From Neocallimastix sp. 'constans' (Eukaryota), in assembly GCA_050613775.1 (NCBI GenBank), contig JBODTK010000102.1, forward strand, positions 124,001-188,000: a stretch of 64,000 nt of DNA. The letters are read 5' to 3'. Of the stretch, positions 19,236 through 54,062 are shown piece after piece. A program made the position numbers and the translations under genes. The notes below the pieces were generated by a model. That model had not been told where the DNA came from and ran no database searches. It saw only the letters and a program-made list of their open reading frames with translations. The stretch's first letter is position 1, and every line of letters begins with the position of its first letter.

Positions 19236-19255
19236 GATTAAGAGTCTCATCCTCT
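19236..19255 (+). promoter_or_regulatory. Primer-binding site complementary to the tRNA-Lys(CUU) D/anticodon arm
   Basis: GATTAAGAGTCTCATCCTCT. Its reverse complement AGAGGATGAGACTCTTAATC matches recalled eukaryotic tRNA-Lys(CUU) nt 21-40 (AGAGCATGAGACTCTTAATC) at 19/20. Confidence 0.9.
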
Positions 19256-19270
19256 TATACTATCTACGAC

Positions 19271-19978
19271 ATGTCTAACGAAACCAAATTAAGAACTGAA
19301 GATATTCTCAATAAGGATAACTTCGAAAATTGGGAATTCCTTATTAAAAACATTCTCAAATCTTTAAAAATTTTACAGTATGTAAATGAGAATGTAATCG
19401 GTAAATTAAATGATAAGCTTAAGGAGGAAAAGGGAAAACCCAAATCCGACGAAACCGTCAAAGCTATCAAGGGCTTGGAAAAGGATATCAAAGAAGCTGA
19501 AACTCAAGATGCCTTAGCCAGTACCATTATCAGTAAAAATGTAAGTCAAGAAATTTTGAAATACATAAGATATCTTACCACCGCCTATAATATTATGGAA
19601 AAATTAAAGGTCTTATATGGAAAAAAGAAAACTGCTGATCTCAACTACTGGTTGAAGAAGTTATACTCTTTAAAAGCCAAAAATCTTTCGGAATGCAAGG
19701 ATATCATTAATCAAATTAAAGAAATCTTTGAAGTAATGGATAAGAACAATAACAAACTCGGAACTTGGGAAAAGATCAGGGTTTTATATTTGTCTTATCC
19801 AAAAGTTTTAAGAGACCTTATTCATCCTAGTGGAACAGAAACAGTTGATGACTTCCTCGAAGAGTCAATCAACAAGATTAATTTCCACATTTTCCTGCAT
19901 AGTGCTATCAATTTCGATAGAAGCGTCACAGATAAAGGTGACTTCATGGATATTGAGTCAAGCAGTTCAAAAAAATAA
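19271..19978 (+). CDS. gag: Copia Gag, N-terminal part (235 aa)
   Basis: Copia gag pattern (LNKDNFENW..TTAYNIMEKLKVLYG); starts 35 nt after the LTR. Confidence 0.85.
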   Translation: MSNETKLRTEDILNKDNFENWEFLIKNILKSLKILQYVNENVIGKLNDKLKEEKGKPKSDETVKAIKGLEKDIKEAETQDALASTIISKNVSQEILKYIRYLTTAYNIMEKLKVLYGKKKTADLNYWLKKLYSLKAKNLSECKDIINQIKEIFEVMDKNNNKLGTWEKIRVLYLSYPKVLRDLIHPSGTETVDDFLEESINKINFHIFLHSAINFDRSVTDKGDFMDIESSSSKK

Positions 19979-20350
19979 TAAAACCAGACCAAGTCCCGAG
20001 CCAAACTATTGTTACCTGTGCAAAATGTTTGGATATACTACCGATGAATGTAGATTTAACCTTATCAACAAAAACAGTAACAGATCGACTCAAAAAGGCA
20101 AGAAGCAATCAAACAAAAAGAAAACTAAAATCAATAAAAGGAAAGGTAAAAATAGCCACCAAAAATCAATTGCAAACGTCGAATATGAAGAACGAAATTC
20201 TGATGAAGAACTTTCCTTAGAAGAACTTAGGACCATGTATGATAAAAATTTAGACAGCTTTGAGCCGTTAGAAGAAAAAAAGAACACTAAAGAAAACTAC
20301 GAAAATAAATGCATTTCTTTAGTATTAAATTCTTCAGAAGATACAAAATT
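19965..20350 (+). CDS. gag: Gag C-terminal segment with zinc-knuckle variant, in the +1 frame
   Basis: CYLCKMFGYTTDEC within ORF 19830-20510; bounded by apparent 1-nt indels in A-runs. Confidence 0.7.
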
Positions 20351-23300
20351 TGGACCTTTGATACTGGTGCTTCAGAACATATTACCAATAACAAAGATAT
20401 CCTCTCAAACTTTAGAGAAGAAAAGATCTCTATGCAGTGTGCAAATAATTCAATCTGTGAGTTTGACGGGGTTGGTACCTATGAAGGAAGTATTAATGGT
20501 TACAACATAAAATTCGAAAATGTCCTCTATTCTAAACAAGTTAACAAGAATCTTCTGAGTGGAATTAAACTTGCGAAGAATGGATTAAAATGTAACATTA
20601 AATCCAGGAAAGACAAAGTTTTTCTCACTTTAAAAACCACACTTGAAAACAAAAGAACAATTAACATAGGCACATTTAAAGCTAATAAAAACAATACAAT
20701 TCATATACTTACGAAGAATAAATCGTATTTAAAGAATTGTATTGACATCGTTTCACCTGAAGAAACAATGGACATAAATGACCAGTCTAAAATGCTATGG
20801 CATAGAAGACTTGGACATTTTTATCACGACAATTTAACTAAATATCTAAAACTCCACAATGTCAAAATTAATGAATGCTTAAATTGTAAAATTGCCAAAT
20901 TAAATAGGAAACCCCATAATGGAGACACTCCAAAGGCAAAGCATCCACTAGACGTAATCCATTCTGATGTTATCGGTCCTATTTCAAAATCATACTCAGG
21001 GAAAAGGTATGTTCTTACTTTTATTGACGAATATACTCGCAAAAGTTGGATCTTCCTCTTGGAAAACAAATCAGAAGTTCCAAGAACAATTATAAATTTC
21101 TTTATTTACTTAAATAATCAATTCTATTATAATATTAAAACTTTTCGTTCGGATCAAGGTACTGAATATAACAATAAAAAGGTACTAAACTACTGCAAGG
21201 AACACAGTATAACAAAAACATTTTCACCACCATACAATCCTCAAAACAACGGGATTGCTGAACGATTCAATTACACCATTGTAAGTTGTGCAAAAACTTT
21301 AATTCAGTGGAGCAAAATGTCTAGTGAGTTTTGGGATTATGCTATCAAATATGCAAATTTACATTATAACATAACTCCACATAAAGGAATTGGAAATAAA
21401 ATTCCAAATGAAATTTATTATAACAAAAAGATCAGTCTTAAATATATTAAAGTTTTTGGTTGTGATGCCTACTATAAAGATTTTTCACAAGGAAAAATGA
21501 AATTTGATAGCAACAGTAAAAAGGGTGTATTTTTAGGAATAAGCATTGAATTCAATTGCTATATAATTATGGATTCAAAGGACTATAGTATTCATTTAGT
21601 CAGAGAGGCAGTATTTGATGAAGAAACTCCATCAAATTTAACCACCAGAATACTCAACAATAAGTTACCAACCAACATTTTTAATAACGACAATTATATT
21701 TACGAATTACCAATTATCAACTCTAACGAAAATGAAAATACATACGATGATTCTGGAAAATTAATATACAATGAAGAATCTAATGAAAAAAATACAGAAT
21801 CCAAAGAAAATAATTCTTCATCAAGAAAAGGTAAGGAACCAGAAATCGATTCACCCGTTTCATCTATAAAAAACAATAATACTAATAAAATTATAGATAC
21901 TCCTATTACTAACAACAAGAAAGATGAGATTAATAACTCTGCTAAAAGTAAGGAACCTGAAGACAACTATATAAATGATGAAAAAATTGAATCCATCGAT
22001 GATCTCGCTTCAGATTTCCAATCTATTAGTGTTTCAAATGATGAATCAAATTTCTCTGAAGACATTTCTTTAGAAAAGGATAAAATAAAATTTAACCCAT
22101 CTACTAAAAGAAAGTCATCAACTTGTAATAATACACCTATCAAAAAGAAGATTAACTTAAATAATGAAATAATTAACACTGTTCCCATTAAACATAAATT
22201 AATTCATTCAAAACTTCCGGATAGTAAGAAACTAAGACCATCCATGAATGAATCGCATAAAAGACCTGGAAACCCTATTCAATCCAACAGTAACAAAAAG
22301 TACAAGATCTCCCTTGACAATGTTGAAACTTCTAAAGGATGCATTACTGAAACACCTCTTTCATATAAACAAGCCATCACACGTTCAGATAAAATCCGGT
22401 GGATAAAAGCTATGAATTCCGAATTACAAAACTTCTATGACAACCGAACCATGATTTTTGTTAAATCGCTTCCTCCTGGTATTAAACCCATAGCTACTAA
22501 ATGGGTCTATACTCTCAAGAAAGACGGCAATGGTAATATCTCAAAATACAAGGCTCGTCTGGTTGCTCGTGGTTTCACCCAGAAAAAGGGAATTGATTAT
22601 AACTTAATATATTCCCCTACTCTTAGTTTAGATAGTCTAAAACTTATAATTGCGCTTGCTTCAAAATTCAATTGGGATCTAATGCAGCTTGATATTAAAG
22701 CTGCATATCTTAATGCTCCGTTGGATAAGGATATTTATGTTAATATTCCTCCTGGTGATAAGAATTTTAGTAAAGGTTATTGGCTTCTTAGAAAAGCTTT
22801 ATACGGCTTAAAACAGTCAGGTCGCCAATGGCACATCCACTTCACAAACTTTCTCAAAAATAATGGTTTCACTCAATTGACATCTGAACCATGTATTTTT
22901 GTTAAAATGGAGGGAGGTAGAGCTGTCTGTATTATTGGAGTTTACGTGGATGATTTATTAATAACAGGTATAAAATACTGTATAAACAAAATTATTAAAA
23001 GAATTAAGAAAAACTTTAAAGTTTCAAAATGCAGTGAAGCAGATTATATTTTAGGAATTAATATTGAAAAGGAAAATTCAAGCTACGTAATTTCTCAAAT
23101 TCAATTAATAAATGATATATTACAAAAATTCAAAGTTAAAAATATAAGAAAGTCAAAAACGCCTTGTTCAAGCATCTCAAATTCAGCAAAGAATAATGAA
23201 CCATTCGATAAAACAACATTTAAAAGTTCAGTCGGATCGTTAATCTATCTAGCCAGGTGTACCCGTCCAGATATTACTTACGCTGTAGGAAAGATTGCTA

Positions 23301-23893
23301 GAAATTCTGAGAATCCTACCATAGCTGATTGGAAAATGGTAATAAATATATTAAAATACTTAAACTATACTAAATACTACAAAATTAAATATAAAGGACA
23401 GGGGGAAATTATAGCAAATACTGACGCTGACTACGCTGGTGACCCAAAAGATAGAAAATCTACTTCTGGGTATATAATATTAATGAATAATGATCCAATA
23501 TGTTGGCAATCCAAGAAACAAACAGTAGTTGTGACACCTACCGCGGAAGCTGAGTACATTGCTACCGCTGAATGTACTAAAAAGGCTTTATGGATTCGAA
23601 ATATTTTATATGAAATATTCAACATTAAAAAACCAATAAAAATATTCACCTATAACTTAGCAAGTAAAACGACAATAGAAAACGGTGAACTCAACAATAA
23701 ATTAAAACATATAGAAATAAAATTTTACTTCAATAAAGATAATATCAAAAATAACAAAATAAAATTAGAATGCATCAATACCGAAAGGATGTTGGCCGAT
23801 CCGTTAACAAAAGATTTTAATGGACCAAAAATGACTAAGTTTACAGACCAAATATTTGACAAGCAAACATTCTGGTCTGAGGGGGAATGTTAG
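20309..23893 (+). CDS. pol: Copia Pol polyprotein (protease, integrase, RT, RNase H)
   Basis: WTFDTGASEH; LWHRRLGH; HSDVIGP/RSDQGTEY/QNNGIAER; KARLVARGF, LDIKAAYLNA, YVDDLL; TDADYAG, AEAEY, MLADPLTK. The stop codon lies just inside the 3' LTR. Confidence 0.97.
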   Translation: MHFFSIKFFRRYKIWTFDTGASEHITNNKDILSNFREEKISMQCANNSICEFDGVGTYEGSINGYNIKFENVLYSKQVNKNLLSGIKLAKNGLKCNIKSRKDKVFLTLKTTLENKRTINIGTFKANKNNTIHILTKNKSYLKNCIDIVSPEETMDINDQSKMLWHRRLGHFYHDNLTKYLKLHNVKINECLNCKIAKLNRKPHNGDTPKAKHPLDVIHSDVIGPISKSYSGKRYVLTFIDEYTRKSWIFLLENKSEVPRTIINFFIYLNNQFYYNIKTFRSDQGTEYNNKKVLNYCKEHSITKTFSPPYNPQNNGIAERFNYTIVSCAKTLIQWSKMSSEFWDYAIKYANLHYNITPHKGIGNKIPNEIYYNKKISLKYIKVFGCDAYYKDFSQGKMKFDSNSKKGVFLGISIEFNCYIIMDSKDYSIHLVREAVFDEETPSNLTTRILNNKLPTNIFNNDNYIYELPIINSNENENTYDDSGKLIYNEESNEKNTESKENNSSSRKGKEPEIDSPVSSIKNNNTNKIIDTPITNNKKDEINNSAKSKEPEDNYINDEKIESIDDLASDFQSISVSNDESNFSEDISLEKDKIKFNPSTKRKSSTCNNTPIKKKINLNNEIINTVPIKHKLIHSKLPDSKKLRPSMNESHKRPGNPIQSNSNKKYKISLDNVETSKGCITETPLSYKQAITRSDKIRWIKAMNSELQNFYDNRTMIFVKSLPPGIKPIATKWVYTLKKDGNGNISKYKARLVARGFTQKKGIDYNLIYSPTLSLDSLKLIIALASKFNWDLMQLDIKAAYLNAPLDKDIYVNIPPGDKNFSKGYWLLRKALYGLKQSGRQWHIHFTNFLKNNGFTQLTSEPCIFVKMEGGRAVCIIGVYVDDLLITGIKYCINKIIKRIKKNFKVSKCSEADYILGINIEKENSSYVISQIQLINDILQKFKVKNIRKSKTPCSSISNSAKNNEPFDKTTFKSSVGSLIYLARCTRPDITYAVGKIARNSENPTIADWKMVINILKYLNYTKYYKIKYKGQGEIIANTDADYAGDPKDRKSTSGYIILMNNDPICWQSKKQTVVVTPTAEAEYIATAECTKKALWIRNILYEIFNIKKPIKIFTYNLASKTTIENGELNNKLKHIEIKFYFNKDNIKNNKIKLECINTERMLADPLTKDFNGPKMTKFTDQIFDKQTFWSEGEC

Positions 23894-24153
23894 AATACAA
23901 AAGAAAAATATATTAAATTTATATTAAAATAATTTATGTGTATTAAATAAATTAAAAGATATTTTTATAATACAACGAACTCGTTGTTAAGCTTAAATAC
24001 AATGAAATATATTATGTAATAATTTCTCGTTATATTTTTAATAAGCCACAAAATAGTATAAATACAAATGTAATCTCATAAATTTTTAAAAATTAAGTAA
24101 TTACTCATATTAATTAAATAAACTTTAATCAATAAAATATTTTATAAATAAGA
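23888..24153 (+). repeat. Copia-1 3' LTR
   Basis: Follows the PPT GAGGGGGAA and is followed by the TTAAT TSD. Confidence 0.95.
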
Positions 24154-25496
24154 TTAATTAAGACCTTAGATTATTAATAAGAAATTTATATTATAAAAAA
24201 ACTCTTAACTTGGAAATTATTAATTTTTTTATGAACCAATATTATTAAATAAAATACAGAATTAGTTATTAGTAATAGTTTTATAATATTTTAAATAAAT
24301 ATATAAGTTTTATATATTTTATTATTATAATATTTTTATTCAATTATTTTCTAAAAGTTTCTAAGGAATTTTTATCATTCTAAAGATTTCCGAAAGAGAA
24401 TTTTTAATTAGTTTTAATATTTTATTTTATTTTATTTTATATGATTGTATTATTAAATTAGTTTTAGTATTAAATTGATTTATAAATAATTATATAGTTA
24501 TTGTATTAAAAGATTCTTATCAATATTATTTTATTATTATATTTTATATAGTTTATATAAATGTATGAATATATTAAGATTAGAATGTATTATTTAATTA
24601 TATTGTTAATTATTATTTTAGTTTAGTATAAAAAGGGTTTGAAATTCCATATTTTGAATTCTTTGTAAGATTATTAACCTTATAACCTTTTAACGTATTA
24701 ACATAAAGTTAATGAATTAATTATAACAATATATAATTCTTTATATTAATCTTAGTTAATTCTATTATTAAAATATATATTAAATAAAGTTCTAATAAAA
24801 CAAAAATCTTAAATATTGAAATCTTAATTATAAAACTCTGTGTGTGTTATTTATTATTTAATTTTAATTAAATTGTTATAATTAATAAGAACATCTTGAC
24901 CAGACCAATTTAACCCAAACTAGGAAAGATATAGCAAGAATCTTACATAATCAATCAATATAATTTTACAATAATCTTACCAACTACAAAAACTCTACAA
25001 TTCTTATTTAACTTAACCCAAAATTAATTCTTTAAAAAGCAATTTTTTTTTTAGATTTCTATTAATTAATTTTAAAAAAATAGGCAATTTGAAATATTCC
25101 AACTACTAATTAATAAAAAATAATTTTACTTTATATTCTAATAAATTAATAAAATATTTTTAATAATAAAATAAATTATTTATTATTTAGTGTTAACATA
25201 TAAGTGTAACTTTTAAATTACATATATTAAAACTTATTTAGATTGTATTTATATAATAAATTTTAAACATTAAAATTATAGAAGTACACTTATAAAGTAT
25301 GTAATATTAATATAGCATTTTTATTTATTATATAAAAACAAGATTAACTACATTTTTATGAACTATTTGTAATTTTCTTATCTTATTTTGTTTGTATGTA
25401 AAATATGATTAGTAGATACTATGTTCGACACATTAATATTGTCGTTTAACATTCCCCCTCAAATCTAACTATCCGTAAAGATATGTGATATTTGTC

Positions 25497-28172
25497 TCAG
25501 TGGTCTTTCACTTCCGTGAGTAGTGAATTTCTAAATTTGTCCATTAGGGAGTTACAAAGATACTTTGTAAATCCATCGGTTAGATTTTCTTTAGAATTAA
25601 TATATTTTAAATTTATTTTATTTTCCTTAATAAGTTCCCTTACGTGATGATATTTGATGTCGATATGCTTTGATTTTGAGTTTATTGATTGATTCTGACA
25701 GTTGTATATTGCGGCCCTATTATCAATGTTAATGGTAACGGAATTTATATTTACATTCAATTCGTTAAATATGTTCATGTAATATAGGCTATGCTTTGCA
25801 CACTCACTAACACCATAATATTCCGATTCAGCAGTAGATGTCGCTACACACTTCTGTTGCTTAGAATACCAGCTAGTTGGCGCATTTCCAATCATCATCA
25901 AGAATCCAGAGGTTGACTTTCTCGATTCGGTGTCGCCCGCGAAATCTGCATCTACGTATACCTTCAACGATCTTTCCTTTGTGAATTTTATCCCGTAGTT
26001 TATAGTATAACTCAGACACTTGAATATTCGTTCAACATTGACCCAATCCTCTAAAGTTGGATTCTTATTCTTTCTGGCAGCCCTGCTTACGGCGAACATT
26101 ATATCAGGCCTAGTACAGACAGCTAGATAGATTAATTTTCCAATTGCACTCCTATATAATGTTTCGTCCCACTTTCTTTTTCTTAAATTAAGATTCTCAA
26201 TGGGTTTCAAGTTTTTAACGGGTAAGCAATCTTTTAGTTTAAACTTAACTAATAATTCTTTTATGTAACCTCGTTGTTGCATGAAATATCCATCGTAATA
26301 TTTTTTAAATTTTATTCCAATGACGAAATCAATATCACCTATATCTTTAATATTAAAATATACTTTAATTTGTTCTTTTACATATAAAATTTCTTTTTGT
26401 TTACCTATCAGTAATATATCATCTACGTAGACCGCTACAATACATAGAACCTCTTTTGATTCGTTTTCCTTGATGTATAGGCACGGTTCACTAATTAATC
26501 TTCGGAATCCAATCTTTGTGAGTGTGTTGTTCAATGTCTCGTTCCATTCTCGGCCTGCCTGCTTTAATCCATACAAGGCTTTGTTGAGTTTTAAGAATCC
26601 TTTGTTGTGCATAGGGTGTCCCTTTGGTGCCTTGATATAGATGTTTTCATTTAGGTCGGCATTTAAGTATGCGGCGTTAACGTCAATTTGCATTATTCGG
26701 TAGTTTCTTTGTACTGCGAGAGCAACGATAATTCGTAGTGAGTCTAGTTTTAATGTGGGGGAGAAGGTGAAGGTATAGTCTATTCCATACCTTTGAGTGA
26801 AGCCTCTAGCTACTAGACGGGCCTTTCTTTTTATGATATTCCCATCGGCGTCCTTTTTATATTTTAGTACCCACTTACAGGATATGATATTAGCACCAGT
26901 AGGTAAGGATTTGGTGGTATTGAAAACCTTAAGTTTCTCCATATTCTTAAGTTCCTCGTTTATGGCTTTTAACCAGTCGTCTTTGTCAGGTAGGCTAAAG
27001 ATGTCATCAAAGTCATTTGGTTCTTTGAGTTTTTGATTATCATTACGTTTTCTGGTATTTATTTGGTTTAATTCAGTGGTTGTGTCGTTTGTTTTGTTTT
27101 CTTTGTGTGAGGAAATATTGTTATAATTTATCTTATTGCTGTTGTCGATTTGTCCATGCGAGTTTTGTGGATTGTAAGAAAAGTTATTAAAATTATTAAA
27201 TTTGTTTAACATATAGGTGTTGCTCCCCCTGATTTCGGAAATTGGCATAAAGTTTGGGAAATTTCTAGGAACTGGGCGAGATATTTTGGAGTTTCCAGGA
27301 GTATCTTCGAAGAATTCGACTGAACGAGAGAGAACGATCTTATTATTAGCTATGTTCAGAATTTTATAGGAATTAGTTAATTGGTGATAACCCAAGAAGA
27401 TACCTGGAAGGGAATTATTGTCGAATTTGTTTCGTTGTGATTTAGGAACAAAGAAGAAGACCTTACAACCGAAGACTTTAAAATGTGAATAATCCATTTT
27501 AGTTTTGAATAATAGTTCAAAAGGGATTTTGTTGTTGATGCCAGAGTGGGGAATACGATTGTGTATGTAATTAGCAGTGTCTACCGCGTATTCCCAGAAT
27601 TCTTTACTAAGTTGTGAATCATTAAGTAGAGATTTAGCTGAACTAATGAGGGTGCCATTAAATCGTTCAGCTCTCCCATTTTGTTGAGGATTATGAGGGA
27701 TAGTGAACTGTTGAACAATACCTCTCTGAGAGCAGAAATACTTGAATTTATTGTTCGTAAATTCCGTACCATTGTCGGTACGAATGTAAGTGATGTTCTT
27801 ATTAAATATTTTTTCATTAGATTTGACCCATAAAGTGAACTTTTCGAAAATGTCACTCTTGTTTTGGATGAGGAGGACCCAACCAAAACGAGAATAGTCA
27901 TCAAGGATGGATAGGAAATATTTATTGGAATGAATAGATTCTACTACTGGATCCACTAGATCCATGTGAATTAATTTAAAAGGAGCTTTGGCTCTGTTGT
28001 TTGATTTCCGATGAGGTAAGTTTCTTTGTTTTGATTGAAAGCATATTGGACATTTAGATTTGATATTAATTTTTAATAGTTTATTTTTAATAAGGTTAAT
28101 GTTGAAGTGCCCAAGGCGTCTGTGCCATAAATTAATTTTATCTAATTTGTTTAGAGTAGAGAGGTGCATCAA
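25497..28172 (-). CDS. pol: Copia Pol (integrase, RT, RNase H)
   Basis: LWHRRLGH, RTDNGTEF, QQNGRAER, KARLVARGF, YVDDIL, YVDADFAG, TAESEY, SKHIDIKYH. Confidence 0.96.
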   Translation of the reverse strand: MMHLSTLNKLDKINLWHRRLGHFNINLIKNKLLKINIKSKCPICFQSKQRNLPHRKSNNRAKAPFKLIHMDLVDPVVESIHSNKYFLSILDDYSRFGWVLLIQNKSDIFEKFTLWVKSNEKIFNKNITYIRTDNGTEFTNNKFKYFCSQRGIVQQFTIPHNPQQNGRAERFNGTLISSAKSLLNDSQLSKEFWEYAVDTANYIHNRIPHSGINNKIPFELLFKTKMDYSHFKVFGCKVFFFVPKSQRNKFDNNSLPGIFLGYHQLTNSYKILNIANNKIVLSRSVEFFEDTPGNSKISRPVPRNFPNFMPISEIRGSNTYMLNKFNNFNNFSYNPQNSHGQIDNSNKINYNNISSHKENKTNDTTTELNQINTRKRNDNQKLKEPNDFDDIFSLPDKDDWLKAINEELKNMEKLKVFNTTKSLPTGANIISCKWVLKYKKDADGNIIKRKARLVARGFTQRYGIDYTFTFSPTLKLDSLRIIVALAVQRNYRIMQIDVNAAYLNADLNENIYIKAPKGHPMHNKGFLKLNKALYGLKQAGREWNETLNNTLTKIGFRRLISEPCLYIKENESKEVLCIVAVYVDDILLIGKQKEILYVKEQIKVYFNIKDIGDIDFVIGIKFKKYYDGYFMQQRGYIKELLVKFKLKDCLPVKNLKPIENLNLRKRKWDETLYRSAIGKLIYLAVCTRPDIMFAVSRAARKNKNPTLEDWVNVERIFKCLSYTINYGIKFTKERSLKVYVDADFAGDTESRKSTSGFLMMIGNAPTSWYSKQQKCVATSTAESEYYGVSECAKHSLYYMNIFNELNVNINSVTINIDNRAAIYNCQNQSINSKSKHIDIKYHHVRELIKENKINLKYINSKENLTDGFTKYLCNSLMDKFRNSLLTEVKDH

Positions 28173-28223
28173 TAAGGTTTTGTCGTGTTTTGGTTCGTTG
28201 TTTGAAATTAGCTTGTTCTTTAG

Positions 28224-29678
28224 TCATAAAGTAAAAATATTCTGGCTGTTTGAACTAACGTTAATGATTCTTTTGCCGGAATCATTGTAAATGGTTAAAT
28301 AAGGTTTGTTGTTGTAATTGAAAAATATAATTTTATAGTGTAGTTGGATAAGTTTGGTAACTGATATTATATTTTTGTTTATGCTATCGACGTAAAACAC
28401 GTTCTTTAATATAAATTTTGAATTGTCGATATATCCGGTAAAATTACCGTAAGCGGAGGCAACAACTGTCTTACCGTTTGGGAGAATAACTTCTTCATTA
28501 CATTTTTTAATATCTGTAAGTAAGTCAATACATCCTGTGATATGTATGGATGCTCCTGAGTCTATTATCCATTGTGATATGTGGCTTTGTGGATAGTGGT
28601 TATTGCTGACAGTGTTTGTAATACAATTTAATAATATCATCCTATTTTCGGTATTATAGTCTTCGAAAATATCTTGAGGTTTTTCAATGGCGTTCACTTG
28701 ATTCTTACGTTGGTTCCTAATATACTTGGAGGTACTTGGAATGTTGTTACAATAATTCTTTCTGAGGTTCTTTTTGAATGGTTTCTTTTTGAATCTGTAT
28801 TTGGCCTTGTTTCTGCATTCATAAGAGTAATGTCCAAAAGTACCGCAGTTGAAGCATTTACCATTTTTTCTTTTTCTTGTTGTAATAACCTTAGAAATTT
28901 TGTTCCTATTCTTGGCTTGGGATTCAACTAGGAACAATTTGTTCTCTTCCATCTTGGATATCTCTCTAGTGTTGGAGAATATGATGTCTGGAATGACATC
29001 CTTAACGTAATTGCAGAGTTGCTTCCAATCATTTTTATATTGAAAAACATTTATAAACCTTAGGTTTTCAGGGAGTGACCTATTCAAAATACCAGCCTTG
29101 ACAGGGTCACTTAACTCATAGTCAATATTTTCTAGCTCATCTATTGCGTTTTGGAGTTTAACAATGAAAATGTTAATGTCGTCTTCTTCGTTGTATTTCA
29201 AATTATTTATTTTGCTTTTAATTTCAAGTTTCCTTTTCTCTGGACTCATTGTGAAGGACTTTTCTAATGTAATCCATATTTGATGAGCTGTCTTTCCATT
29301 ACCTTCAATTATTTTCTTTGTATTCTCTCCTAGGCTGTTGGTAATGATCCATTTTACCATCACATCGTTTTTTATATCTTTTAACGATGTGTTCTTATCG
29401 TATACTAGGCTGGGGTCAAACTTGTCTTCAAGGTAGTTGTCAAGGTCATCCCTGAGATTTCTTTTTCTAAGTTTCTTTATCTTTTCTTCTATTACGTATC
29501 CTTCAAGGTTGTTAATCATCAGAAGATATAGAATGTTCGTTCTCCAGCTGGGGTAATTTTCTGTAGATAGTTCAATAACACGATTGAAATTTTCCGAGTA
29601 ATTGAACGTGATACCTTTTGTTAAGGTTTCATCTGTGTCATCAATAGTTATAGGTATGTTGTTTCTGTTTCTACTCAT
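28224..29678 (-). CDS. gag: Copia Gag-protease (484 aa), in frame with pol across a single TGA
   Basis: Zinc knuckle CFNCGTFGHYSYEC and protease WIIDSGASIH. Same frame as 25497-28172, with 17 sense codons between the two ORFs. Confidence 0.93.
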   Translation of the reverse strand: MSRNRNNIPITIDDTDETLTKGITFNYSENFNRVIELSTENYPSWRTNILYLLMINNLEGYVIEEKIKKLRKRNLRDDLDNYLEDKFDPSLVYDKNTSLKDIKNDVMVKWIITNSLGENTKKIIEGNGKTAHQIWITLEKSFTMSPEKRKLEIKSKINNLKYNEEDDINIFIVKLQNAIDELENIDYELSDPVKAGILNRSLPENLRFINVFQYKNDWKQLCNYVKDVIPDIIFSNTREISKMEENKLFLVESQAKNRNKISKVITTRKRKNGKCFNCGTFGHYSYECRNKAKYRFKKKPFKKNLRKNYCNNIPSTSKYIRNQRKNQVNAIEKPQDIFEDYNTENRMILLNCITNTVSNNHYPQSHISQWIIDSGASIHITGCIDLLTDIKKCNEEVILPNGKTVVASAYGNFTGYIDNSKFILKNVFYVDSINKNIISVTKLIQLHYKIIFFNYNNKPYLTIYNDSGKRIINVSSNSQNIFTL

Positions 29679-30522
29679 ATTGTTATCTCCCTTTTGAATT
29701 TTTGGATAAATGTTTTCTTGATAAAAAATTTTTTTGTTCGTTTACTAAGTCTTTAAGAACTTTATGTTAGCATATGATGTGATTGAATATTGAATATTTG
29801 TTTGTTTTATTTTATTATATTATTTAATTTAATTGGTTAAAATACTATTATTTGATTTGTTGAATGATTAATACTTATATATATATATATATATATTTTT
29901 TTTTTTTTGCTTTAAATTTAATTGGTTAAGTAATAATTATGGTAATTTTAATGTATTTAAATTATTGGTTTAAATTTTGATATTAATGTTCTTCATTGTT
30001 TTATATATCTATATAGGAATAATTTTATTCACCTTTAATTTATTATTAATTTAATATAAATTTTTATTTTAAATTCTTTTCGATAAATTATTTGTTTATT
30101 CATTTGTTCTTAACGCGAATTATATTTCCTTTTAAATCTTATTATTTAATTAAAATTTTAATAAGATTTAGTTTTGTCACTGACTATTTTCAGTGTGATG
30201 TTTATTATTTGCTGCTGACTATTTCAGCATAGCTTTATTTACCTCTTATTTGCTGCTGACTATTTCAGCATAGCATTATTTATTTCTTATCTATGTAAGC
30301 CATTTTTTTTTTTTTTTTTTTTTGTATATAAATTAAAAAAAAAATGAATTGTTTTTCATCTTTTAAATATATATGTATAATGTTGAATTTGATTAAAAAA
30401 ATTCCTTTTTTTTTTTTTTTTTTTTGGTATTTTAAGATATTAATTAGTAAGAATATATTTTATTATTTATTTTTTATACTATATATATTTTAATACTTAG
30501 CTTTATATGAGATGAGGTGAGA

Positions 30523-30536
30523 TGAGACTCTTAATC
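30523..30536 (-). promoter_or_regulatory. Copia-2 PBS (half-tRNA-Lys type)
   Basis: GATTAAGAGTCTCA on the minus strand, directly abutting the 5' LTR. Confidence 0.9.
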
Positions 30537-33987: not shown

Positions 33988-34028
<41 letters not shown>

Positions 34029-43494: not shown

Positions 43495-43850
43495 TTAAAC
43501 ACCGAATATAATTAAATTGCTTATAATATTTAGTATCACTAGCTTTATTATTGGAGTTATAACGAACATACAAAATACAATGAACACAATTATAATCAAA
43601 AATCCTAGAATACCAAAAAAATTCAAGATTATGTTCAGTGTCAGTTTCCCATTCTGGTTGTTTAGGTAAGATGCATTCTTCATCACAATATCCTTTGCAT
43701 ATTCATCTTCAGTGGTTCAAGGATCTCCTACAAATCTACCACAATGTCCTTCTATATAAAGTTTGATATCTCCGTTTTCATTAAATACACATCTAGTATC
43801 CACACATTTATTTGTAAAGCATTAAATGAGGAATAATTATTTCCGCTGCA
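43495..43850 (-). pseudogene. Cys-rich, C-terminally membrane-anchored protein fragment (cargo, antisense)
   Basis: CFTNKCVDTRCVFNENG..HCGRFVGDP*TTEDE..YCDEEC followed by hydrophobic FGILGFLIIIVFIVFCMFVI. Confidence 0.55.
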
Positions 43851-44789
43851 ACTCTTAATTCAAGTCTAACTTCATAAAAAGCTAGACTTGAAGGGGAGTG
43901 TTAAAATATAAATATTGAAGTTTTGTATATATATAATATTAAGGAGTTTTGTGATATATTTTAATATATATATTTTCAAGTATAAGACCAATAATATATT
44001 TGTGTAACCTAAATAAAATAACTATAAATATTTTATAATATAAAATTCTTCAATAATGATGCCTTTTAATAAAATAGACGAAATTAAATTTTCATTTTCT
44101 ATAAACATAAATAAACGAACTTTTTACTTTTAACATCCTCAAATCTAATTTTGGATAAAAGTTTGACTTGAATAGAAATATAGTGTTTGTATTACAATAC
44201 AAGATAATTGTTTTATTTTAATATGATTATAAAAAAAAATATAAATTTATAATATTTTAAAAGAGTATGAATGACATTACATTATATTTATATTTTTTCA
44301 TTTTTATATTAATATCATATTTTAATAATTCCATTATTTTATTATTTACAATATAATCTATTTTTTCTCTTCTTCTTAGTATGTTTCATTATCACTATTA
44401 ATTTCATCATCATTTTCATCATCTAATTTTAATTTATTGTTATTACTTTCATTATTATATTATTCATATTTTTGTTTCTATACAATCAGTATTTATTGAA
44501 TAATAATCGTGACAATCTCTTAAATCTAATTCATTAAGGAGTGGAATTGGTTTGATATCTAAGTCAACATCAGAAGATTTTAATATTTCATTAATAATAG
44601 TTTAATTTAATACTACTTCAATATCATCATATTTTTATTTTATATTTTCTGCATATCTAATTTCCGTTGAAAGGAAATGTTTTTAAATTTTTACTTTTTT
44701 TTTTATTTATTTATTTTTTTTTTTTTAAAAAAAAATTTTATTAATATATTTTTTATACTTTTTCTCTTTTATTAATTTTATTGTTCATT

Positions 44790-45400
44790 TATTTTTGTTG
44801 TTCCATTAATGGAGTAACAAACCAACAACCTAAACCATTTTTAGAAGCAAAACCATGAACACCAAGCTTTAATGCATCAATTGTCCAATCATCTTTATGA
44901 ATATCTTCACCTATTTTTATTATACAAGTTTCTTTTAGACCTATAACATGACAATTCTTTGTTGTTTAGTGGTTGGTAAATAACGACCAGCATCATCATT
45001 AACTTGTAACCAACTAAATGTATTACTTTTTATTTTTAAAATTAAATAAATTTCACTAAATTGAGTATTGGAATAATTAATTTTATGATCAAGTTTTAAA
45101 GAAAAATGCACATCTTTAGAATCATTAAGAATAGTATATCTAACTTCCATTTCGTATTTAATACATTATCAGTGAAAGAAATTTCAACATTATCATTTTT
45201 TTCTTTGTTATAGAACTTCTTTTGCATGAAAGCCAACTTTTGAACTATTAGTATCAATATACGATCTATTTAAAAATTCTTGATCGTCACTAGTAATCTT
45301 TAATAAAGTAATATTACTATATTAGAAATAAAAACATTAGCGTAGTCATTCTTTAAAATGTTTGAATTATTGTTTTGTATCGAACTGAGAGAAGAAACGA
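44790..45400 (-). pseudogene. Unidentified host-gene fragment inside the outer LTR element
   Basis: ORF 44941-45150 continues past stops into KDDWTIDALKLGVHGFASKNGLGCWFVTP; no TE motifs recognised. Confidence 0.45.
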
Positions 45401-48056
45401 TATAAGTCAAGAAGGTTTCTTATAAATTAATAAATAAAATTTTCATTTTTATTAATGAGTTATGTCGTTCAACGATTGAGTTATATTTTTAACTAATCAT
45501 TTGAAAAAGAATAAGAGTGAACCGTTCAAATCTTTCTTAGAGTTCATTCGTTCCATCTTTTTTAAAAAGGAATTTGCAAAAAGTTTTATGTTAAATAAAT
45601 ATGGAGGATTCTTTCTATTTTCTCATTTATTTTTTTTTCATTGATTGATTTTTAAGTATTTTTCATTTGGTGATTACTAAAAAAAAAATACGGTTCTTCT
45701 AATTATACTTTATATTCTACAATACAACAGATATATCATTTTTTAAAATTTAAATTTATCTATCAGTGGAATACTTATTTTGCTTTATAGTTCTTTTTAA
45801 AGTTTAAATTTACTTTAAGATGACAAGACCACATATTTCTAACTAGAACTACAAAAAAATATATTTGCTAATTCTTAAAACCCTTCAGTAGATGTATTGA
45901 TTTCTTTTGTCATAAACTTAAACTAAGTATATAAAACTATTTTTAAATATTTTAAGATGTTTAATTTAACATAAAATTACAAATTATATAATGAATTTAT
46001 TCCTGTTGTAATTAATTCAAATTTTCGTTTTTAAAAGATAATTCCTTAATATTGACCATCTCAATTGCAATAACAACTTCAATGTAAAACTTCATTTTTA
46101 AATAAGCACTTAATATTGGCAACTTTAATTTCATTTTCAATAACAGATGTCGAGGATTGTGATATTCAAAAAGTTACTTATCTATTAATAATGGATATTG
46201 AGTAAATAAATATTTATTATTTATAAATCATTTTGTGGCTGCATTATAATTAAAAATATTATTAATAAAATAAATATTTTTGTTGTAGATTGAGTAATCC
46301 AAATTTTTGCTTCCAAAAAGTGACAATTCTTATCGGTATCCATATAGATCATCTTTGTTTTCAAAAGAGAGATTCTTAACATCGACAATTTCAATATTTT
46401 TTTGCTAAAACCATCTTCCCCTGATCATGTTATTTCAAACTTTTATTTTTATTATTTAAAATCTTCTAGGAATTTATGCATTTACATGTTTCTATTTTAT
46501 TTACAATTTCTTAATTCTTTTCAATATTTTTAATGTGTTTTACATTTATTCTATAATAATTCTTTTTAATTTTATTATTTTTCAAATAATTAAAAAACAA
46601 ATAATGGTTTATTTTAAAAAAATCATATTTAACACAATCAATTTATCAAATAAAATTTATTTTGAATATGGAAATTGCATCACGTTGAAAATATAAACAT
46701 CATTGAATTCATAATTATAAATAATTTCTTATAGATTTTAAGATAAATTAAAAAAACTTAAAAATATAATTAATCCTATAAATTTTTATAATGATATTTT
46801 CAAAGAATATTGTAAATTCTAAATATCAATTATCAACAAGTAAATCTTTCATTAAAGTTCATTTTTAAAAATGTTTTTTCAAAATTTTAAGAAATAATTT
46901 TAGTTAATTTTTTTTTTTTGAATCATTAACATTCATTTGATACATTTGATTTGCTTTGTTAAAAAATTTAAATAGATATTATTTATTAAAATTTAGTATT
47001 ATAATTAATTATATAATTAATAGATCAAGTTTAATTTGTTTTATTTTAATTATGAAACTTTAATTAATATTTCATATTGATAAATTGATTTAAAAAAAAA
47101 TTGCATTTTAAATTTTAATTGGTAAGACAAATATTATATATTAAAGTTTGATAATGTTTAATTCTGTTGGCTCTTGATTTATCAATAAATATAACTTATT
47201 AAATTTAAAATTCTCATTTGAATTTTTATTTATATTTGACTTTAAAAAATTGTAATTTTTATTACATTATGTGTTATAATACGAAACTTTATTAAATAAA
47301 GTATTGAAAATATTTAATTTATTAATAATTTTGAATTAATAAAATTCTAATTATTACTTTTCTTCAATTTATTAATTTTTACTTATTGATTTGTTCCATA
47401 ATTTCTTTTTAATGTATTTAATAAAATATGTATAACATTATTTATTTATAATTTTATTTTATAAAGAAAAAACTAGTTATTAATTTTTTATTATTATTTT
47501 AATTAAATTTTACTTTTATATTAATATTATTTATAATTTCAAATTTACTTTAATATATCATCAGTTGACTATTAATTTTTCATCTTGATGATATTAATTT
47601 TATTTTATTTTTAATTATTTTTATTTTTTATTTTTTTTTATAATATCGGCTGACTATAATATCTTTTCAGCTCAATATGTATATTATTTTTTAAATTCAT
47701 ATATCATTTTTCATATCGGTTGACTAATGTTTTTAGCTCGATATATATATATTATTAATAAATAGATCTATAATATAAATTATACTTATCTTTTCAAGCC
47801 TTTCATGTCTTTGTTCAATCTGGTAAGACTGAGACTCTTAATTTATTAGAAATAAGAATCTCTTTATTTTATGAAAATATTAGAATCATTCTTTTTTAAA
47901 ATAATAATTTACATTTTTATATTATATATAGTTAACATAATATATGACTTATTATTACTATTGGTTACATATTTTACATGAATATATAAAAATATATATT
48001 ATTTCTCCTTAAATTAATATAATTATAAAATTTTATATTTATATTTTTAACAATTA

Positions 48057-51000
48057 TGTGAAAAGTATAAATCTCTTTTCTTATTATATAAGAATAAAGA
48101 ATAGTATGTGTACATAATTTTATACTTTTTTATGGTATTTATAGTAAACATAATATGTGGCTTTTTGTTACTATTGGTCACATATCTTATACTACTATAT
48201 TGATTTATATAACATTACTCCTTTAATTAATATAACTATAAATCTTTATATTTTTGTTTCTAACATTCCCCCTCAAATCTGACTTTGGGTGAAAGTTAGA
48301 GTTGAAGAGAAATATTGCAAATGTATTACTATATAAAATAATATTTTATTTTTAATAATAATAATACAAATAACATATTATAAAGTACATGAAAAAGATT
48401 TATTTTATTTTTATTTGTAAACTAAAGAAATTATTTTTATATATTTTAGATTCTAATGTTTCCCCTTACTTTCAAATTGAATTGGAGTTATTTTTTTATT
48501 ATTATTATTATTTATTAATCTTTCTTTACTTATATTATTATTATGCTTTTTATTTTATTTTATTATTATTATTAATTTTTATTTATATGAATTACTTTCT
48601 GGGAAATATTTTATTGTTTGATGAAAGAAAATATTCATAGAATCATACATAGATTGAAGGTAATTTGGTATATCAGCGTTATCCTTAGCTTCTAATAATT
48701 CAATATTTTTAATAACTTTTTCATATAATGATTCATATTTATTCTTCTTTATTTTATAAGATTGTTCATATTCCCTTAATAATGAGGTAGCATGTCTACA
48801 TTCTTGAATGCCATTAATTTCAGTGCTTTATCTTTATTTTGTTTGAGCAATCATTTGAATAGTAATATCCATTTCAGTACGAACATTATTATAATTGTAA
48901 ATAGAATCTTCGGCATCACGAATAGCTTTATCTAAGAAAGTTTTTAGCCATTCATGGAAATTTTCCATAGCTGGTCAGTATAAATAATCAATATCTTCAG
49001 AACTTGAACTTAAAGAATAACTAACAAGATTTAACCTTTTTTTTTTTTTTTTATAAAATAACTTCATCTCCTTTTAATTTTGCATCTTTAGATACAAAGT
49101 AAAATTGCTTTTGTTCGTTCATAGTAGTTTTTATACAATTAATCATCTTTTTAATATTGTCTTTGGTTGTTTGATATATTTCTTCAATCTATTAAGTATA
49201 TCAATAATTGTATCAACCTTTGGATCAACAGTTTTAACTGGTTAGAAAAAGCCAAACTGAGCATTAACTTGTTCTTTAAAAGTTTGATTAAAGCAAGCTG
49301 AAAATAAATAAAAAAATTTACAAAACTATAACAATATATAATTTATAATATTGGTTTATTGTTGATTATAACATTTATACTAATATAATTTTTTTTTTTT
49401 TTTTACTAATTATATATAATAAAATTTAATTCATTTGATAAAATGCTGTATTTGTCATCATGTATTACTAGAATATCTCTATTAAATTAATTATTATTTA
49501 TATGAAATAAATATAACATTGTTTCAAAATCTACAACGCATTTGTCATTTATTTGTTAATTTAAAGTAATATCTTTTAAATAATAATAAATTGTGAAGGA
49601 TAAACGTAACTTTTTATTTTCTATAATATTAAAATACCATTGTGAAGATTCATCGGATGAATGAGTTAATTTCATAATATATCTTTCTCAAAAAATCTTT
49701 TATTGGTAAATGTATTTATTGGTTATAAAATACCTTCAAATTTAATCATAGGTTTTCTGGTGTTAACGATCTTATTTTTAATAGCATTTAAATCTCCTAC
49801 TTTTTTTTATATATAAATATATATATAATTCCCATTTATATTTAGATGTTAATCATTGATTTGAAGCACCAAAAAATTATATTATCAGTAATTTTTGTGT
49901 TTTTCTAAAAATATTTTTATTCTTCATTGTTTTCATATGATGCGGTAATCACAAATCAATATTGGATTATTAGAATATTTTTTATAAGGTTAGTATCATC
50001 TTTTAAAGATTACATATATTTCTTTCATGCCATAAGATTTCTATCATATTTGGATATTTATTTATAATTTACATACTTAATTTTTATATATTAATTATTT
50101 AAATTTTCTCCTTTAGTATTTAATAAAAAGATTCTTTTAGTGCTTCTTTATTATTTAATTGTTTTAATTTATGAAAGTTTTTATTTGATTCACAAATAAC
50201 AAATTATTCTTTTATTTTTAAGATGTTTAGAATGAATTTTATTTACAGTAATACATTTTTCAATATTTTTACTCTTTTTTTTTTTTTAACGAATGATTTA
50301 CGAATATTTGGAGAATAATAAATAATTCAAATAATATATTTTAAATTATTTTATATAGATTATCTAAATGTAAACTTCCCTATTATTGTTATTGATATAT
50401 ATAAATGGGTTTTATTTGAATAAATAAGTCATTAAAAAAATATATTACAGGTTTCGAGATTTAACAAAAATTAGATTAATAAATCAATAAATGGTAAATT
50501 AGATTTTTATAAATATATATATATTATAAATAATATAATTTTTTTGAAAAAATTTTAAATTTTTATTAAAATTGATGAATTGGATTAAATATTATTAATT
50601 AAAGTTTAGCAAAAATAATTATATTTATATTATTGATTGAATTTAATTTAATTTTAATTTAATAAATCATTAATATTATTTTTAATAATGATATAATTGG
50701 ATAAACAGATTATTTGTAATTGATAATTCTTAGTCTTAATAACTTAAAATGACTATTATTTTAAATTTACTTATTTAAAACTTCACTAGTTAGACTATTA
50801 TTTTTATTTTTATTTTCCATTATTTTAAATTTAGCTAATCTAGTTGACAATCATTTTATAGTTAATTATTGTCAAAAATATTATGTTAAGAAACACTCAA
50901 ATAAGTTATAATAAACACAATAATAAATATATATGGATTAGTAGTTTTTAGAAAAATATTTTTTTATAACAGTATAAATTATTTTTATTCTCTTTTTGTA

Positions 51001-51833
51001 TAAGATATTATTTTTTTATAAAATAATAATTCCATGATTTTTATACTTTTTATTTTGAATATTAATACAAGTAATTGGTCATTATTTATATTAAAGATAG
51101 ATTAATTAAATTAATCATTATTTTGACAATTATTTACAACTTAGATAAACTAATCAACAATTATTTTTATTTTTATTGTTAATCAACCTAGCTAGTTGAC
51201 AATTATTTTTATTTTATTATCAATTATTCACAACTTAGCTAGTTGACATTTATTTTTTATTTTCATTAATTCTCAACTTAGATAGACTAGTTGACTTTTT
51301 ATTTTATTTTAATATTTTCTTTTTATCTAATAATATATATATGTATTTATATCATTTTTTTATTTTTAGAAAATTAATAATAACTTTGACATATTACAAT
51401 AAGTATTTTATTTTAAATTTTATATCCTTAACATTCTCACAATTGTTCTGTAATATTTTCTTATAGATATTGGTTATTACGTTTTGTTTCTATAATAAAT
51501 TTTATAAAAATAATAAAAATATATTTTTATTAGTTTGATTATAAATGATAAAATGATTTTATATTTTATATATTTCAACTTATCTTTATTGATAGATCAA
51601 CTGAAGAGTTGAAACTCTTAATCTGTGAAAAGTATTAATCTCTTTTTTTTATTATATTAGAATAAAAAATAGTATGTGTACATGATTTTATACTTTTTTA
51701 TGGTATTTATAGTAAACATAATATGTGGCTTTTTGTTACTATTGGTCACATATCTTACACTAATATATTAATTTATATAATATTACTCCTTTAATTAATA
51801 TAACTATAAATCTTTATATTTTTGTTTCTAACA
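48057..51833 (-). mobile_element. Non-autonomous LTR element carrying an arfaptin-like fragment
   Basis: TG..CA LTRs at 48057-48265 and 51624-51833. PPT at 48266-48274, PBS at 51610-51623. No TSD found and no gag/pol motifs seen. Confidence 0.88.
48660..49297 (-). pseudogene. Arfaptin/ICA69-like AH (BAR) domain gene fragment
   Basis: KTVDPKVDTIIDIL; MENFHEWLKTFLDKAIRDAEDSIYNYNNVRTEMD; KKNKYESLYEKVIKNIELLEAK. These resemble AH-domain helices as I recall them. Stops and frameshifts are present. Confidence 0.65.
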
Positions 51834-54062
51834 GAAATAATTAATTCTTTAATGTTGGATAAATTTATTTCTGGAATCGCTCTTTTAATATATTTGCTGC
51901 GGTTATTCCATATTGAAAACTGAAATACATTAATCCATTTTAAATTTTCTGGTAGGCGTCTATTTTATATGCATATTTTAGAACTGTCACTAATTTCCGA
52001 ATCAATTTTTGCTATTTCATTGAATAAATTTCGAAAGTTTGTTATGAATTACGATATGTCCTTATTATTAAATTTTAAAATTTCGATTTTGTTTGTTAAT
52101 TCGATTTTTCTTTGCTCCTTACTTTTGATGAACGATTCTTTTAGGAGCTTCCAGATTTCGTAGGCTGACTTTTCGTTTCCATCAATAATTGACTGAGTTT
52201 GTTCATCAAGGCTATTAATTATAATCCATTATGTCGTAATATCATTATCAATGTCGTTTATGGTGGTATTTTTTTCATATACGAAAGTATCATTGAATTT
52301 GTCTTCGATGTACTCATTAGTATTTCCTTTTATATCTTTCTTTTTTAATTTTTTAATAACAGAATAAGTATGTATTTAGTGAGTTTATTTATATTTAAAA
52401 GATATAACATATTCCTCCTCCATGTTATATAATTTTCTCTATTTAATTCGGTAACTCTATTAAAGTTTTCCGAATAATTAAAAATGATTGTATTCCGAAT
52501 ATTATTATTATTGTGATGATTGGTTGTGGTTGAGATTGAGATTGATTTTGGATTTGGATTTGATTTTGAGTTGAATTTTGACATAGATTATGAGAGTTTC
52601 TTCTTTTCATTTTGAAATAATTTAAATTTTATTGTTAAATATTTAATTTGGTTAAATTTTTTATTATTTGAGTATAAAGTAAATAATTTGGTTATTATAA
52701 GAATAAAGTGAGGAATTTTTTTTTTATTTATAGTAATTTTTAATATAAAATTATATTATTATTTAATAAGTTATTATATTTATGTTCATGGTTTATATTA
52801 AAAGTAAATTAGTTTTTATAGTGTGATTAAATTTAATAATTTATTTATAAACAACATAAATATTATTACTATTATTAGTATTATTAATTTCATTTATAAT
52901 TAATTTATATAAATTAATTACTTATAGTTTTATTGGTTTCTATTTTAGTGTATCAATTTTGGTTTAAATAACTTGTTTAAATGATTATTATTGACTTTCA
53001 TTAATATTGTTCTTTTATTTAGTATGACTCACTTTTATAAATATAATTTTATATTAAAATGTTATTTATTTTTATTGTTTAAATCAAAAGATAATTTTTT
53101 ACAGTTTAAACTACTGGTAATATATATATTTTATTATTTCAACTTAAATAAAACATTGGATGACATTGGTTTATATTATTTTATTTATTAATATATTGTC
53201 AGTTGACATTAATTTTAATTGTTTTCAACTTTATTATATATTTGAAATTATAATTTATATTAATTTTATTTTTAATGTAATCAGTTGATTTAAATTTATA
53301 TTATATTTTGATTTAATATCTATGAATATCAGATGACATGAGTTTTGAAATTTTTCATCTTAATTTAAATTTATACGTAATTTATATTTAGATATATGTG
53401 ATGAATGCTTCAATAATTTCATCTAGATATATTTTCTTTTCTCTTTTTTTAATAATTTATTAACATTTTATTATTTTTCAACTTGACTATATTAATTTAT
53501 TATTAGTGGATTTTTAGTTATTTATTTTCATCTCAATATTTATATATTAATTGACATAGTATTTATTATATTAATTAAATTTAATTAAATAGTTATTTAT
53601 ATTTATTTAATAACATTCCCCATTGATCTCCTTACTAACCAAATTATTTTGTACTTTTGTGTAGTTACATGAGTTTTTATTTGGTGTTTCTTTATTTAAT
53701 TATATATATAGTAATATATATTAAAAGGTAAAATAAAAAATTAGTATTTTTATATAAATTTTAATAAATATTTATAATATATGTTATATTTAATCTTAGA
53801 TTTTATTTATGTTCAACTGGAGAGTTGAGACTCTTAATCTTTTAAAATATAAAAATGGAAAAGTATTTAATTTTAGTAATATTTTATTTTATTTTAGTTA
53901 TGTTCATACTTGATATTATTTATTCAGTAAAATTTACATCCTTTTATACTTTTCTTTAATATATAATATTATTAACATATTCATTATAACTATTTATTTA
54001 ATTTATATTTAATATAAATAATGTCATTTGTATATTAAAAAGTCTATTTCTTTATTTTAACA
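51834..54062 (-). mobile_element. Truncated Copia-2-related element: 5' LTR (53840-54062), PBS (53826-53839), leader and gag pseudogene (51834-52584)
   Basis: IIFNYSENFNRVTELNRENYITWRRNMLYLL aligns with Copia-2 Gag (ITFNYSENFNRVIELSTENYPSWRTNILYLL). It is cut at the LTR ending 51833. Confidence 0.85.

What the first reader, a model, noticed from the sequence alone, without database searches (positions are those of the whole stretch)
19236..53839. A copia lineage apparently primed by the 5' half of tRNA-Lys(CUU)
Seen: GATTAAGAGTCTCA or a close variant abuts an LTR or LTR-like block with zero spacing at 19236(+), 30523(-), 31298(-), 37681(-), 39035(+), 47830(-), 51610(-) and 53826(-). None begins with the TGG expected for 3'-CCA priming. 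Established: the reverse complement TGAGACTCTTAATC is the anticodon arm (nt 27-40) of eukaryotic tRNA-Lys(CUU). Half-tRNA priming is known for Drosophila copia and yeast Ty5 (tRNA-iMet) and for Candida Tca2 (tRNA-Arg). Inference: these elements use a tRNA-Lys fragment cut after nt 40. I do not recall a Lys half-tRNA primer being described, but I could not check the literature.
Basis: partly seen in the sequence, partly recalled or inferred. Interest (0 to 1): 0.88.

Follow-up and report, generated by a model that had tools for sequence, protein, structure and literature searches.

The report
Gut-fungus copia with tRNA-Lys half-primer site
Several jumping genes in what is most likely a gut-fungus genome carry, right after their first terminal repeat, a 14-base site that matches the middle of lysine tRNA, so they likely start copying from a cut tRNA; the same site is already in print for a large group of mould elements, so this is a new host group, not a new mechanism.

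Summary
In detail: 9 matches within 2 mismatches against 0.56 expected. Two elements (E1, E2) are interrupted Ty1/copia gag-pol copies with 42% RT-RH identity. Three are non-coding and share the primer site and polypurine tract. The host is most likely a Neocallimastigomycota fungus. The site is the complement of nt 27-40 of tRNA-Lys(CTT) genes fetched here. Difference counts indicate that a deep, intron-less tRNA-Lys in samples holding E1 has the same arm; its letters were not printed. Nt 40 is the published start of half-tRNA priming. Self-priming is not supported. [quoted passage not shown] Half-primers from iMet, Arg, Ile, Tyr, Asp and Asn are also published, and this scan noted Lys half-primer sites before on other DNA. 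What may be new: this host group (FunCo1 was reported as almost confined to Pezizomycotina), a conserved second box behind the site, and non-CA right LTR ends. Kinship with FunCo1 could not be tested.

The parts
18970..24153 (+). E1: Ty1/copia element, LTRs 18970-19235 and 23888-24153 (259/266 identical, ends TG..GA), target duplication TTAAT, gag and pol in interrupted frames
19236..19249 (+). E1 primer-binding site, exact, zero spacing
20309..23893 (+). E1 pol frame: protease, integrase, RT (RVT_2), RNase H; polypurine tract just before 23888
25261..30727 (-). E2: Ty1/copia element, LTRs 30537-30727 and 25261-25451 (185/191 identical; right ends AG and AA), target duplication TTTAT, one stop between protease and integrase at 28224-28226
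30523..30536 (-). E2 primer-binding site, exact, zero spacing
31298..31311 (-). E8: decayed site with two changes and a decayed second box; no LTR recognised upstream
37681..37897 (-). E6: unpaired LTR 37695-37897 (70-77% like E4/E5 LTRs, right end TA) with site 37681-37694 (one change, opposite the anticodon) and second box
38584..48052 (-). E5: non-coding element, LTRs 47844-48052 and 38584-38788 (about 90% alike; right ends TA and AA), target duplication ATAAT, site 47830-47843 (first base changed); E3 sits in its polypurine tract
38798..44135 (+). E3: non-coding element, LTRs 38798-39034 and 43899-44135 (232/237 identical, TG..CA), target duplication TCCTC, exact site 39035-39048, polypurine tract before 43899
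39045..39064 (+). Second box in E3: predicted 8-bp hairpin that includes the last four bases of the site; its 3' arm could also pair with the tRNA D-arm
48057..51833 (-). E4: non-coding element, LTRs 51624-51833 and 48057-48265 (200/210 identical, TG..CA), flanks do not match, site 51610-51623 (one change that keeps a G-U pair); interrupts the gag remnant of E7
51833..54062 (-). E7: truncated element, LTR-like block 53840-54062 (right end AA), exact site 53826-53839, long leader, gag remnant about 52496-51833 related to E2 gag (48-65% aa)

Best explanation
These are Ty1/copia LTR retrotransposons and non-coding LTR elements whose primer-binding site follows the 5' LTR without a gap and is complementary to nt 27-40 of tRNA-Lys(CUU), so they likely prime minus-strand DNA from a 5' fragment of host tRNA-Lys ending at about nt 40. 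Shown: element anatomy, zero spacing, and the 14-base match to tRNA-Lys(CTT) genes. Inferred from difference counts: the host lineage has a multi-copy, intron-less tRNA-Lys with this arm. Inferred from copia and Ty5: the tRNA is opened, annealed, cut in the anticodon stem and extended from the new 3'-OH; the nuclease is not identified here. Inferred: the non-coding E3-E5 borrow the enzymes of coding relatives, since they share primer site and polypurine tract. Tentative: a second box behind the site adds pairing to the tRNA D-arm, or folds back on the site.
For: Motif far above chance. Same site behind LTRs with little or no likeness to each other (E1, E2, E7 against the rest: z -0.1 to 4.4 versus shuffles) and in elements on both basal branches of one clade. 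14 of 14 pairs in 5 of 7 elements, 13 of 14 in 2 of 7; the change in E4 keeps a G-U pair. Predicted duplex with a non-host tRNA nt 1-40 is -27 to -44 kcal/mol against -3.5 to -7.4 for its last 18 nt (lengths differ, so only a rough contrast). Register ends at nt 40, the published start of Hemivirus priming (PMC1181622). Six difference counts from deep contigs in three samples that hold E1 allow only 2 placements if they are one sequence, both with nt 28-43 unchanged. Exact site again in 2 of 5 gut-fungal-type contigs from other assemblies (L126, L133); the other 3 do not reach a place where it would lie. Same core site published for FunCo1.
Against: No primer RNA or strong-stop DNA was seen. 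The host tRNA letters were never printed: the arm rests on counts and on treating contigs from three samples as one sequence; without X1, 7 placements remain and 5 of them put a change in nt 29-43. The window's own genome is not held, and the runs hold only about half of E1's words, so they are relatives. The metagenome scan for the tRNA gave 3 genes, none from DNA as AT-rich as the window (29-31% GC). The last LTR base can also pair with nt 41 in 7 of 7 elements, so a cut after nt 41 is not excluded. E5 and E6 have a mismatch, E5 at the priming end.
Confidence: 0.86

Rival explanations
1. The primer is a tRNA-Lys-derived RNA made outside the particle (a stress-type 5' half trimmed or cut at another position, or a transcript of a tRNA-derived repeat), not a tRNA cut at nt 40 after annealing.
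For: Sequence cannot tell where or when the cut is made; the terminal LTR base also pairs with nt 41 in 7 of 7 elements and E1 pairs to nt 42.
Against: The site starts opposite nt 40 in all seven elements, the position published for Hemivirus priming. A cut in the loop would leave the first site bases unpaired and shift the LTR end (inference).
Confidence: 0.07
2. Self-priming as in Tf1 or plant TAR: the site pairs with the element's own LTR transcript.
For: E5 has a 10-bp helix (with G-U) between the site and the LTR 9 nt from its end; E3, E4 and E6 fold a short stem across the junction.
Against: Best helices are 6-10 bp and none beats shuffled LTRs (fraction 0.10-1.0 of 300). The site is constant while LTRs differ, which self-priming would not require. 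The two pol-bearing elements have only 9 and 7 bp.
Confidence: 0.03
3. The motif is a packaging, dimerisation or protein-binding signal and its match to tRNA is incidental.
For: It overlaps a conserved hairpin in the non-coding elements.
Against: No other primer site follows the LTR; a random 14-mer hits nt 27-40 of one of about 60 tRNAs with odds near 2e-7; the hairpin is absent from E1, E2 and L133 while the 14-mer is exact.
Confidence: 0.04

Closest known systems
FunCo1 clade of fungal Copia elements (Donnart et al. 2017, PMC5445492; passages and section 10 read, six supplements searched)
   Same: PBS ATTAAGAGTCT, described as complementary to an internal region of tRNA-Lys; it is contained letter for letter in the motif here.
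   Different: Reported almost only from Pezizomycotina (plus 2 copies in Lipomyces; none in 245 basidiomycete genomes). Neocallimastigomycota do not occur in the text or the searched supplements. In the passages read the site is called 'classical', with no register or cleavage model. Kinship by RT tree not tested.
Hemivirus-type priming: Drosophila copia, yeast Ty5, Osser, 1731 (PMC1181622 part 2 of 4; PMC8515867 whole text; PMC5371799 and PMC10275265 passages)
   Same: Copia domain order; site opposite the anticodon stem-loop, ending at nt 40.
   Different: Those use initiator tRNA-Met, and the primer was studied by experiment for copia and Ty5; here it is Lys(CUU) and only predicted.
Rust-fungus Copia and non-autonomous Helenus (Kojima 2024, PMC10886601; passages and section 3.6 read)
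   Same: Anticodon-loop primers, 5-bp target duplications, non-coding elements sharing the site with coding partners although LTRs differ.
   Different: Primers are Tyr, Ile, Asp, iMet or Asn; Lys appears there only as a 3'-end primer of animal elements. Helenus LTRs hold a tRNA-like sequence; ARAGORN and Rfam found none in this window.
Plant Bianca (half tRNA-Ile), Bryco, Osser, Gymco-II (half tRNA-Met) and Candida Tca elements (internal tRNA-Arg(UCU) or iMet) (PMC6317226 passages and Additional file 5; PMC4139406 passages)
   Same: Half-molecule primer as a lineage trait of Copia elements.
   Different: Other tRNAs; no half-Lys among the dominant types in Additional file 5 (the per-element Additional file 1 was too large to read).

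Membership tests
Ty1/copia (Pseudoviridae) | Domain order gag, protease, integrase, RT, RNase H with a copia-type RT | tested here: met
   E1 and E2: Retrotran_gag_2, Pol_BBD, rve, RVT_2 in that order; RNase H read from the C-terminal ADxxTK-type motif, not from a Pfam hit
Ty1/copia (Pseudoviridae) | Direct LTRs, site after the 5' LTR, polypurine tract before the 3' LTR, 5-bp target duplication | tested here: met
   5 LTR pairs, 4 of 5 with matching duplication, tracts in 5 of 5 (that of E5 split by E3)
Ty1/copia (Pseudoviridae) | LTRs end TG..CA | tested here: inconclusive
   Left end TGTTA in 7 of 7; right end CA only in E3 and E4; GA in both E1 LTRs; AA, TA or AG elsewhere
Hemivirus-type half-tRNA priming | Site complementary to the anticodon stem-loop, ending at nt 40 | tested here: met
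   host arm inferred from counts
Hemivirus-type half-tRNA priming | Cleaved tRNA attached to minus strong-stop DNA | not testable with these tools
   only assembled contigs were served
Genus Hemivirus (copia, Ty5, Osser, 1731) | Primer is initiator tRNA-Met | tested here: not met
   anticodon in the matched arm is CTT
FunCo1 | PBS ATTAAGAGTCT | tested here: met
   letter for letter in E1, E2, E3, E5, E7, L126, L133
FunCo1 | RT groups with FunCo1 references | not testable with these tools
   no FunCo1 sequence came from any call; no named Pezizomycotina protein among the 120 listed or the 12; 20 look-ups gave no organism names; sister group unresolved
FunCo1 | Host in Pezizomycotina | tested here: not met
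   20% GC; neighbour gene 74% identical to Neocallimastix lanati; RT clade holds Orpsp1 proteins
Self-priming elements (Tf1, TAR) | At least 10 bp in the 5' LTR complementary to the start of the internal region | tested here: not met
   6-9 bp in 6 of 7; 10 bp with G-U in E5; none above shuffles
Non-autonomous LTR elements (LARD-like; label recalled) | LTR pair, primer site and polypurine tract without gag-pol | tested here: met
   E3, E4, E5: longest stop-free frame 78-120 aa, no tblastn hit with 120 copia polyproteins

The most novel reading that the evidence does not exclude
The whole gut-fungal copia clade uses a tRNA-Lys half and acquired it independently of FunCo1, or shares it through a lineage older than the split from Dikarya or through transfer; part of the clade adds a second pairing box to the tRNA D-arm (a two-part site for a half primer), and its integrase accepts right LTR ends other than CA.
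Probability: 0.3. Interest if true: 0.5.

Novelty: new member of a known kind. Interest (0 to 1): 0.27.

Why it matters
It extends a published but little-discussed primer type (internal tRNA-Lys site) to an early-branching fungal group, and fixes its register at nt 27-40, like copia and Ty5. If the lineages are unrelated, it is a repeated switch to the same tRNA half, which bears on how primer identity changes. In practice the 14-mer is a good tag for annotating LTR elements in very AT-rich gut-fungal genomes, where searches for 3'-end primer sites or TG..CA ends would miss many of them. It does not reveal a new mechanism.

Tried and rejected
No own genome is held. ARAGORN and Rfam found nothing in the window. 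The single metagenome scan, aimed at tRNA-Lys in AT-rich DNA, gave 3 genes at 29-31% GC, so no lineage-wide survey of elements in metagenomes was possible. X15 (RNA) and X1 gave no cover, which is no evidence of absence; X13 was left out of the count argument because its pieces were shallow and mixed. Looking for the translated site at the start of homologues found nothing. The IQ-TREE run did not finish; both trees are FastTree with a composition warning, rows under 430-440 aligned residues dropped, and only 1 in 4 of 64 AT-rich first-search rows kept. Naming possible sister groups failed; the Atlas gave no answer. Ke et al. 1999 is not held. The hairpin is weak on energy (z -2.1 to +0.9) and its covariation rests on related sequences and a hand-set structure. 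Considered and rejected: 3'-CCA priming (no TGG), tRNA-Arg as in Tca2 (anticodon is CTT), site 26186 (inside pol). Paper searches; none returned a description of this site in Neocallimastigomycota.

Full report
Observation. The motif occurs 9 times within 2 mismatches; shuffles give 0.56. LTR pairs place five sites directly behind a 5' LTR: E1 18970-24153(+), E2 25261-30727(-), E3 38798-44135(+), E4 48057-51833(-), E5 38584-48052(-). Five-base target duplications fix the ends of E1, E2, E3 and E5; E4's flanks differ. E6 (37681) follows an unpaired LTR related to E4/E5. E7 (53826) follows an unpaired 223-nt block starting TGTTA and leads to a gag remnant cut by E4. At 31298 no LTR start was found.

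Elements and host. E1 and E2 carry gag, protease, integrase and copia-type RT in copia order; both are interrupted and share 42% identity over RT-RH. E3-E5 have no frame over 120 aa and no hit with 120 copia polyproteins, but keep the site and a similar polypurine tract; E3 inserted into the tract of E5. The window is 20% GC, a neighbouring gene is 74% identical to a Neocallimastix lanati protein, and RT relatives include Orpsp1 proteins, so the host is most likely Neocallimastigomycota. In a FastTree tree of 111 rows, E1 and E2 fall on the two basal branches of a 69-row clade (support 100). The clade holds in a 200-row tree (support 99) with no supported sister. Shared AT-rich composition may inflate this grouping.

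The tRNA match. tRNA-Lys(CTT) genes fetched here (L004, L121, L122) have the motif's reverse complement at nt 27-40; none is from the host. Of 7 elements, 5 pair 14 of 14 bases and 2 pair 13 of 14; the change in E4 keeps a G-U pair. To reach the host lineage I laid contigs of runs that hold about half of E1's words on the L121 gene. X1 and X14 (one sample) each gave a single 75-nt contig, depth about 6000-7400, aligned over nt 1-63 with 7 differences and no gap, so no intron. Deep pieces gave 3 differences over nt 1-43, 3 over 17-58 and 4 over 29-63 in X9, and 3 over 27-57 and 4 over 28-63 in X8. If these are one sequence, only 2 placements fit, both with nt 28-43 unchanged. The same loose 3' end in X1, X8 and X9 favours one sequence. 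Without X1, 7 placements remain, 5 with a change in nt 29-43.

Other assemblies. A scan of genome bins found 11 copia contigs, 5 of gut-fungal type by identity and GC. L133 has the exact site 5' of gag; L126 has tract, TG..CA LTR and exact site in a row (probably merged LTRs); L125, L127 and L131 do not include the place. The other six lack the motif.

Mechanism. Half-tRNA priming starts at the 3'-OH of nt 40 in copia, Ty5, Osser and 1731 (PMC1181622); the site here starts opposite nt 40. I therefore infer priming by a 5' fragment of tRNA-Lys(CUU). The last LTR base could also pair with nt 41 in all 7 elements, so the exact cut rests on analogy. A review attributes the Ty5 cut to RNase P (PMC5371799); nothing here tests that. 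Self-priming fails: best site-LTR helices are 6-10 bp and not above shuffled LTRs.

Extra features. E3-E7 and L126 carry a second box right behind the site that can fold back on its last bases; 71% of cells pair against 64% in shuffles (hand-set structure, related rows, weak). Its 3' arm could instead pair with tRNA nt 10-19 (non-host tRNA); E1, E2 and L133 lack it. Right LTR ends are CA in only 2 of 7 elements; both E1 LTRs end GA. Decay may explain most of these, but not easily E1.

What is known. Donnart et al. [quoted passage not shown] It is the only relevant paper of 3 holding that string with 'retrotransposon' (the other two seen as listings). Six of its supplements were searched; two slide files, one of which carries its clade tree, could not be read and may bear on kinship. 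Neumann 2019 lists half-Met and half-Ile in plants, Kojima 2024 Tyr, Ile, Asp, iMet and Asn in rust fungi, a Candida review internal Arg and iMet. Ten searches gave no account of this site in gut fungi; Repbase and GyDB were not searchable. The scan's notes list four earlier Lys half-primer findings in other genomes.

Verdict. A real and well-supported primer site of a known kind, in a host group for which I found no report. It works like Hemivirus priming; it is not shown to be FunCo1, whose host range it does not fit and whose RT could not be compared. Interest 0.27.

Noticed in passing
L129:4425-4445: A GC-rich copia contig from a soil bin has, right after its LTR, a site complementary to a CAT-anticodon arm in the same register; the arm looks like elongator rather than initiator tRNA-Met (label recalled).
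   Followed up: partly
L128 (3' end) and L130 (5' end): L128 looks like a plant Bianca element with its half-tRNA-Ile site (label recalled); L130 has an ordinary site starting TGG.
   Followed up: no
L125, L126, L127, L131, L133: Gut-fungal-type copia contigs sit inside archaeal and bacterial genome bins (Methanosphaera, Methanobrevibacter, Bacilli, Erysipelotrichaceae), most likely misbinned.
   Followed up: partly
window 37681-54062: A nest of related elements: E3 in the polypurine tract of E5, E5 four bases from the 3' LTR of E4, E4 in the gag of E7; may reflect a preference for older copies.
   Followed up: partly
window 19235, 24153, 25261, 30537, 37695, 38584, 47844, 53840: Right LTR ends GA, AA, AG or TA instead of CA, while left ends are always TGTTA.
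   Followed up: partly
window 34109-35569 (+): Open 486-aa frame with FLYWCH and MULE transposase domains.
   Followed up: no
window 2326-3392 (-): Gypsy-type RNase H and integrase zinc-finger fragments.
   Followed up: no
window 3920-6101 with 9069-11275; 16042-17968: A 2.2-kb inverted duplication at 66% identity and a 1.9-kb self-inverted block; possibly old fold-back or DNA transposon remnants.
   Followed up: no
window 31900-33700: Long degenerate array of short AT-rich units.
   Followed up: no
window 54559-61503: Three family-2 glycosyltransferase-like genes, with a copia RNase H remnant at 56098-56319 between the first two; the frame at 62484-62786 resembles the start of a UDP-sugar dehydrogenase (recalled, untested).
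   Followed up: partly
L004:2955-6836: A contig filed as a giant-virus bin carries 25 tRNA genes in 3.9 kb.
   Followed up: no
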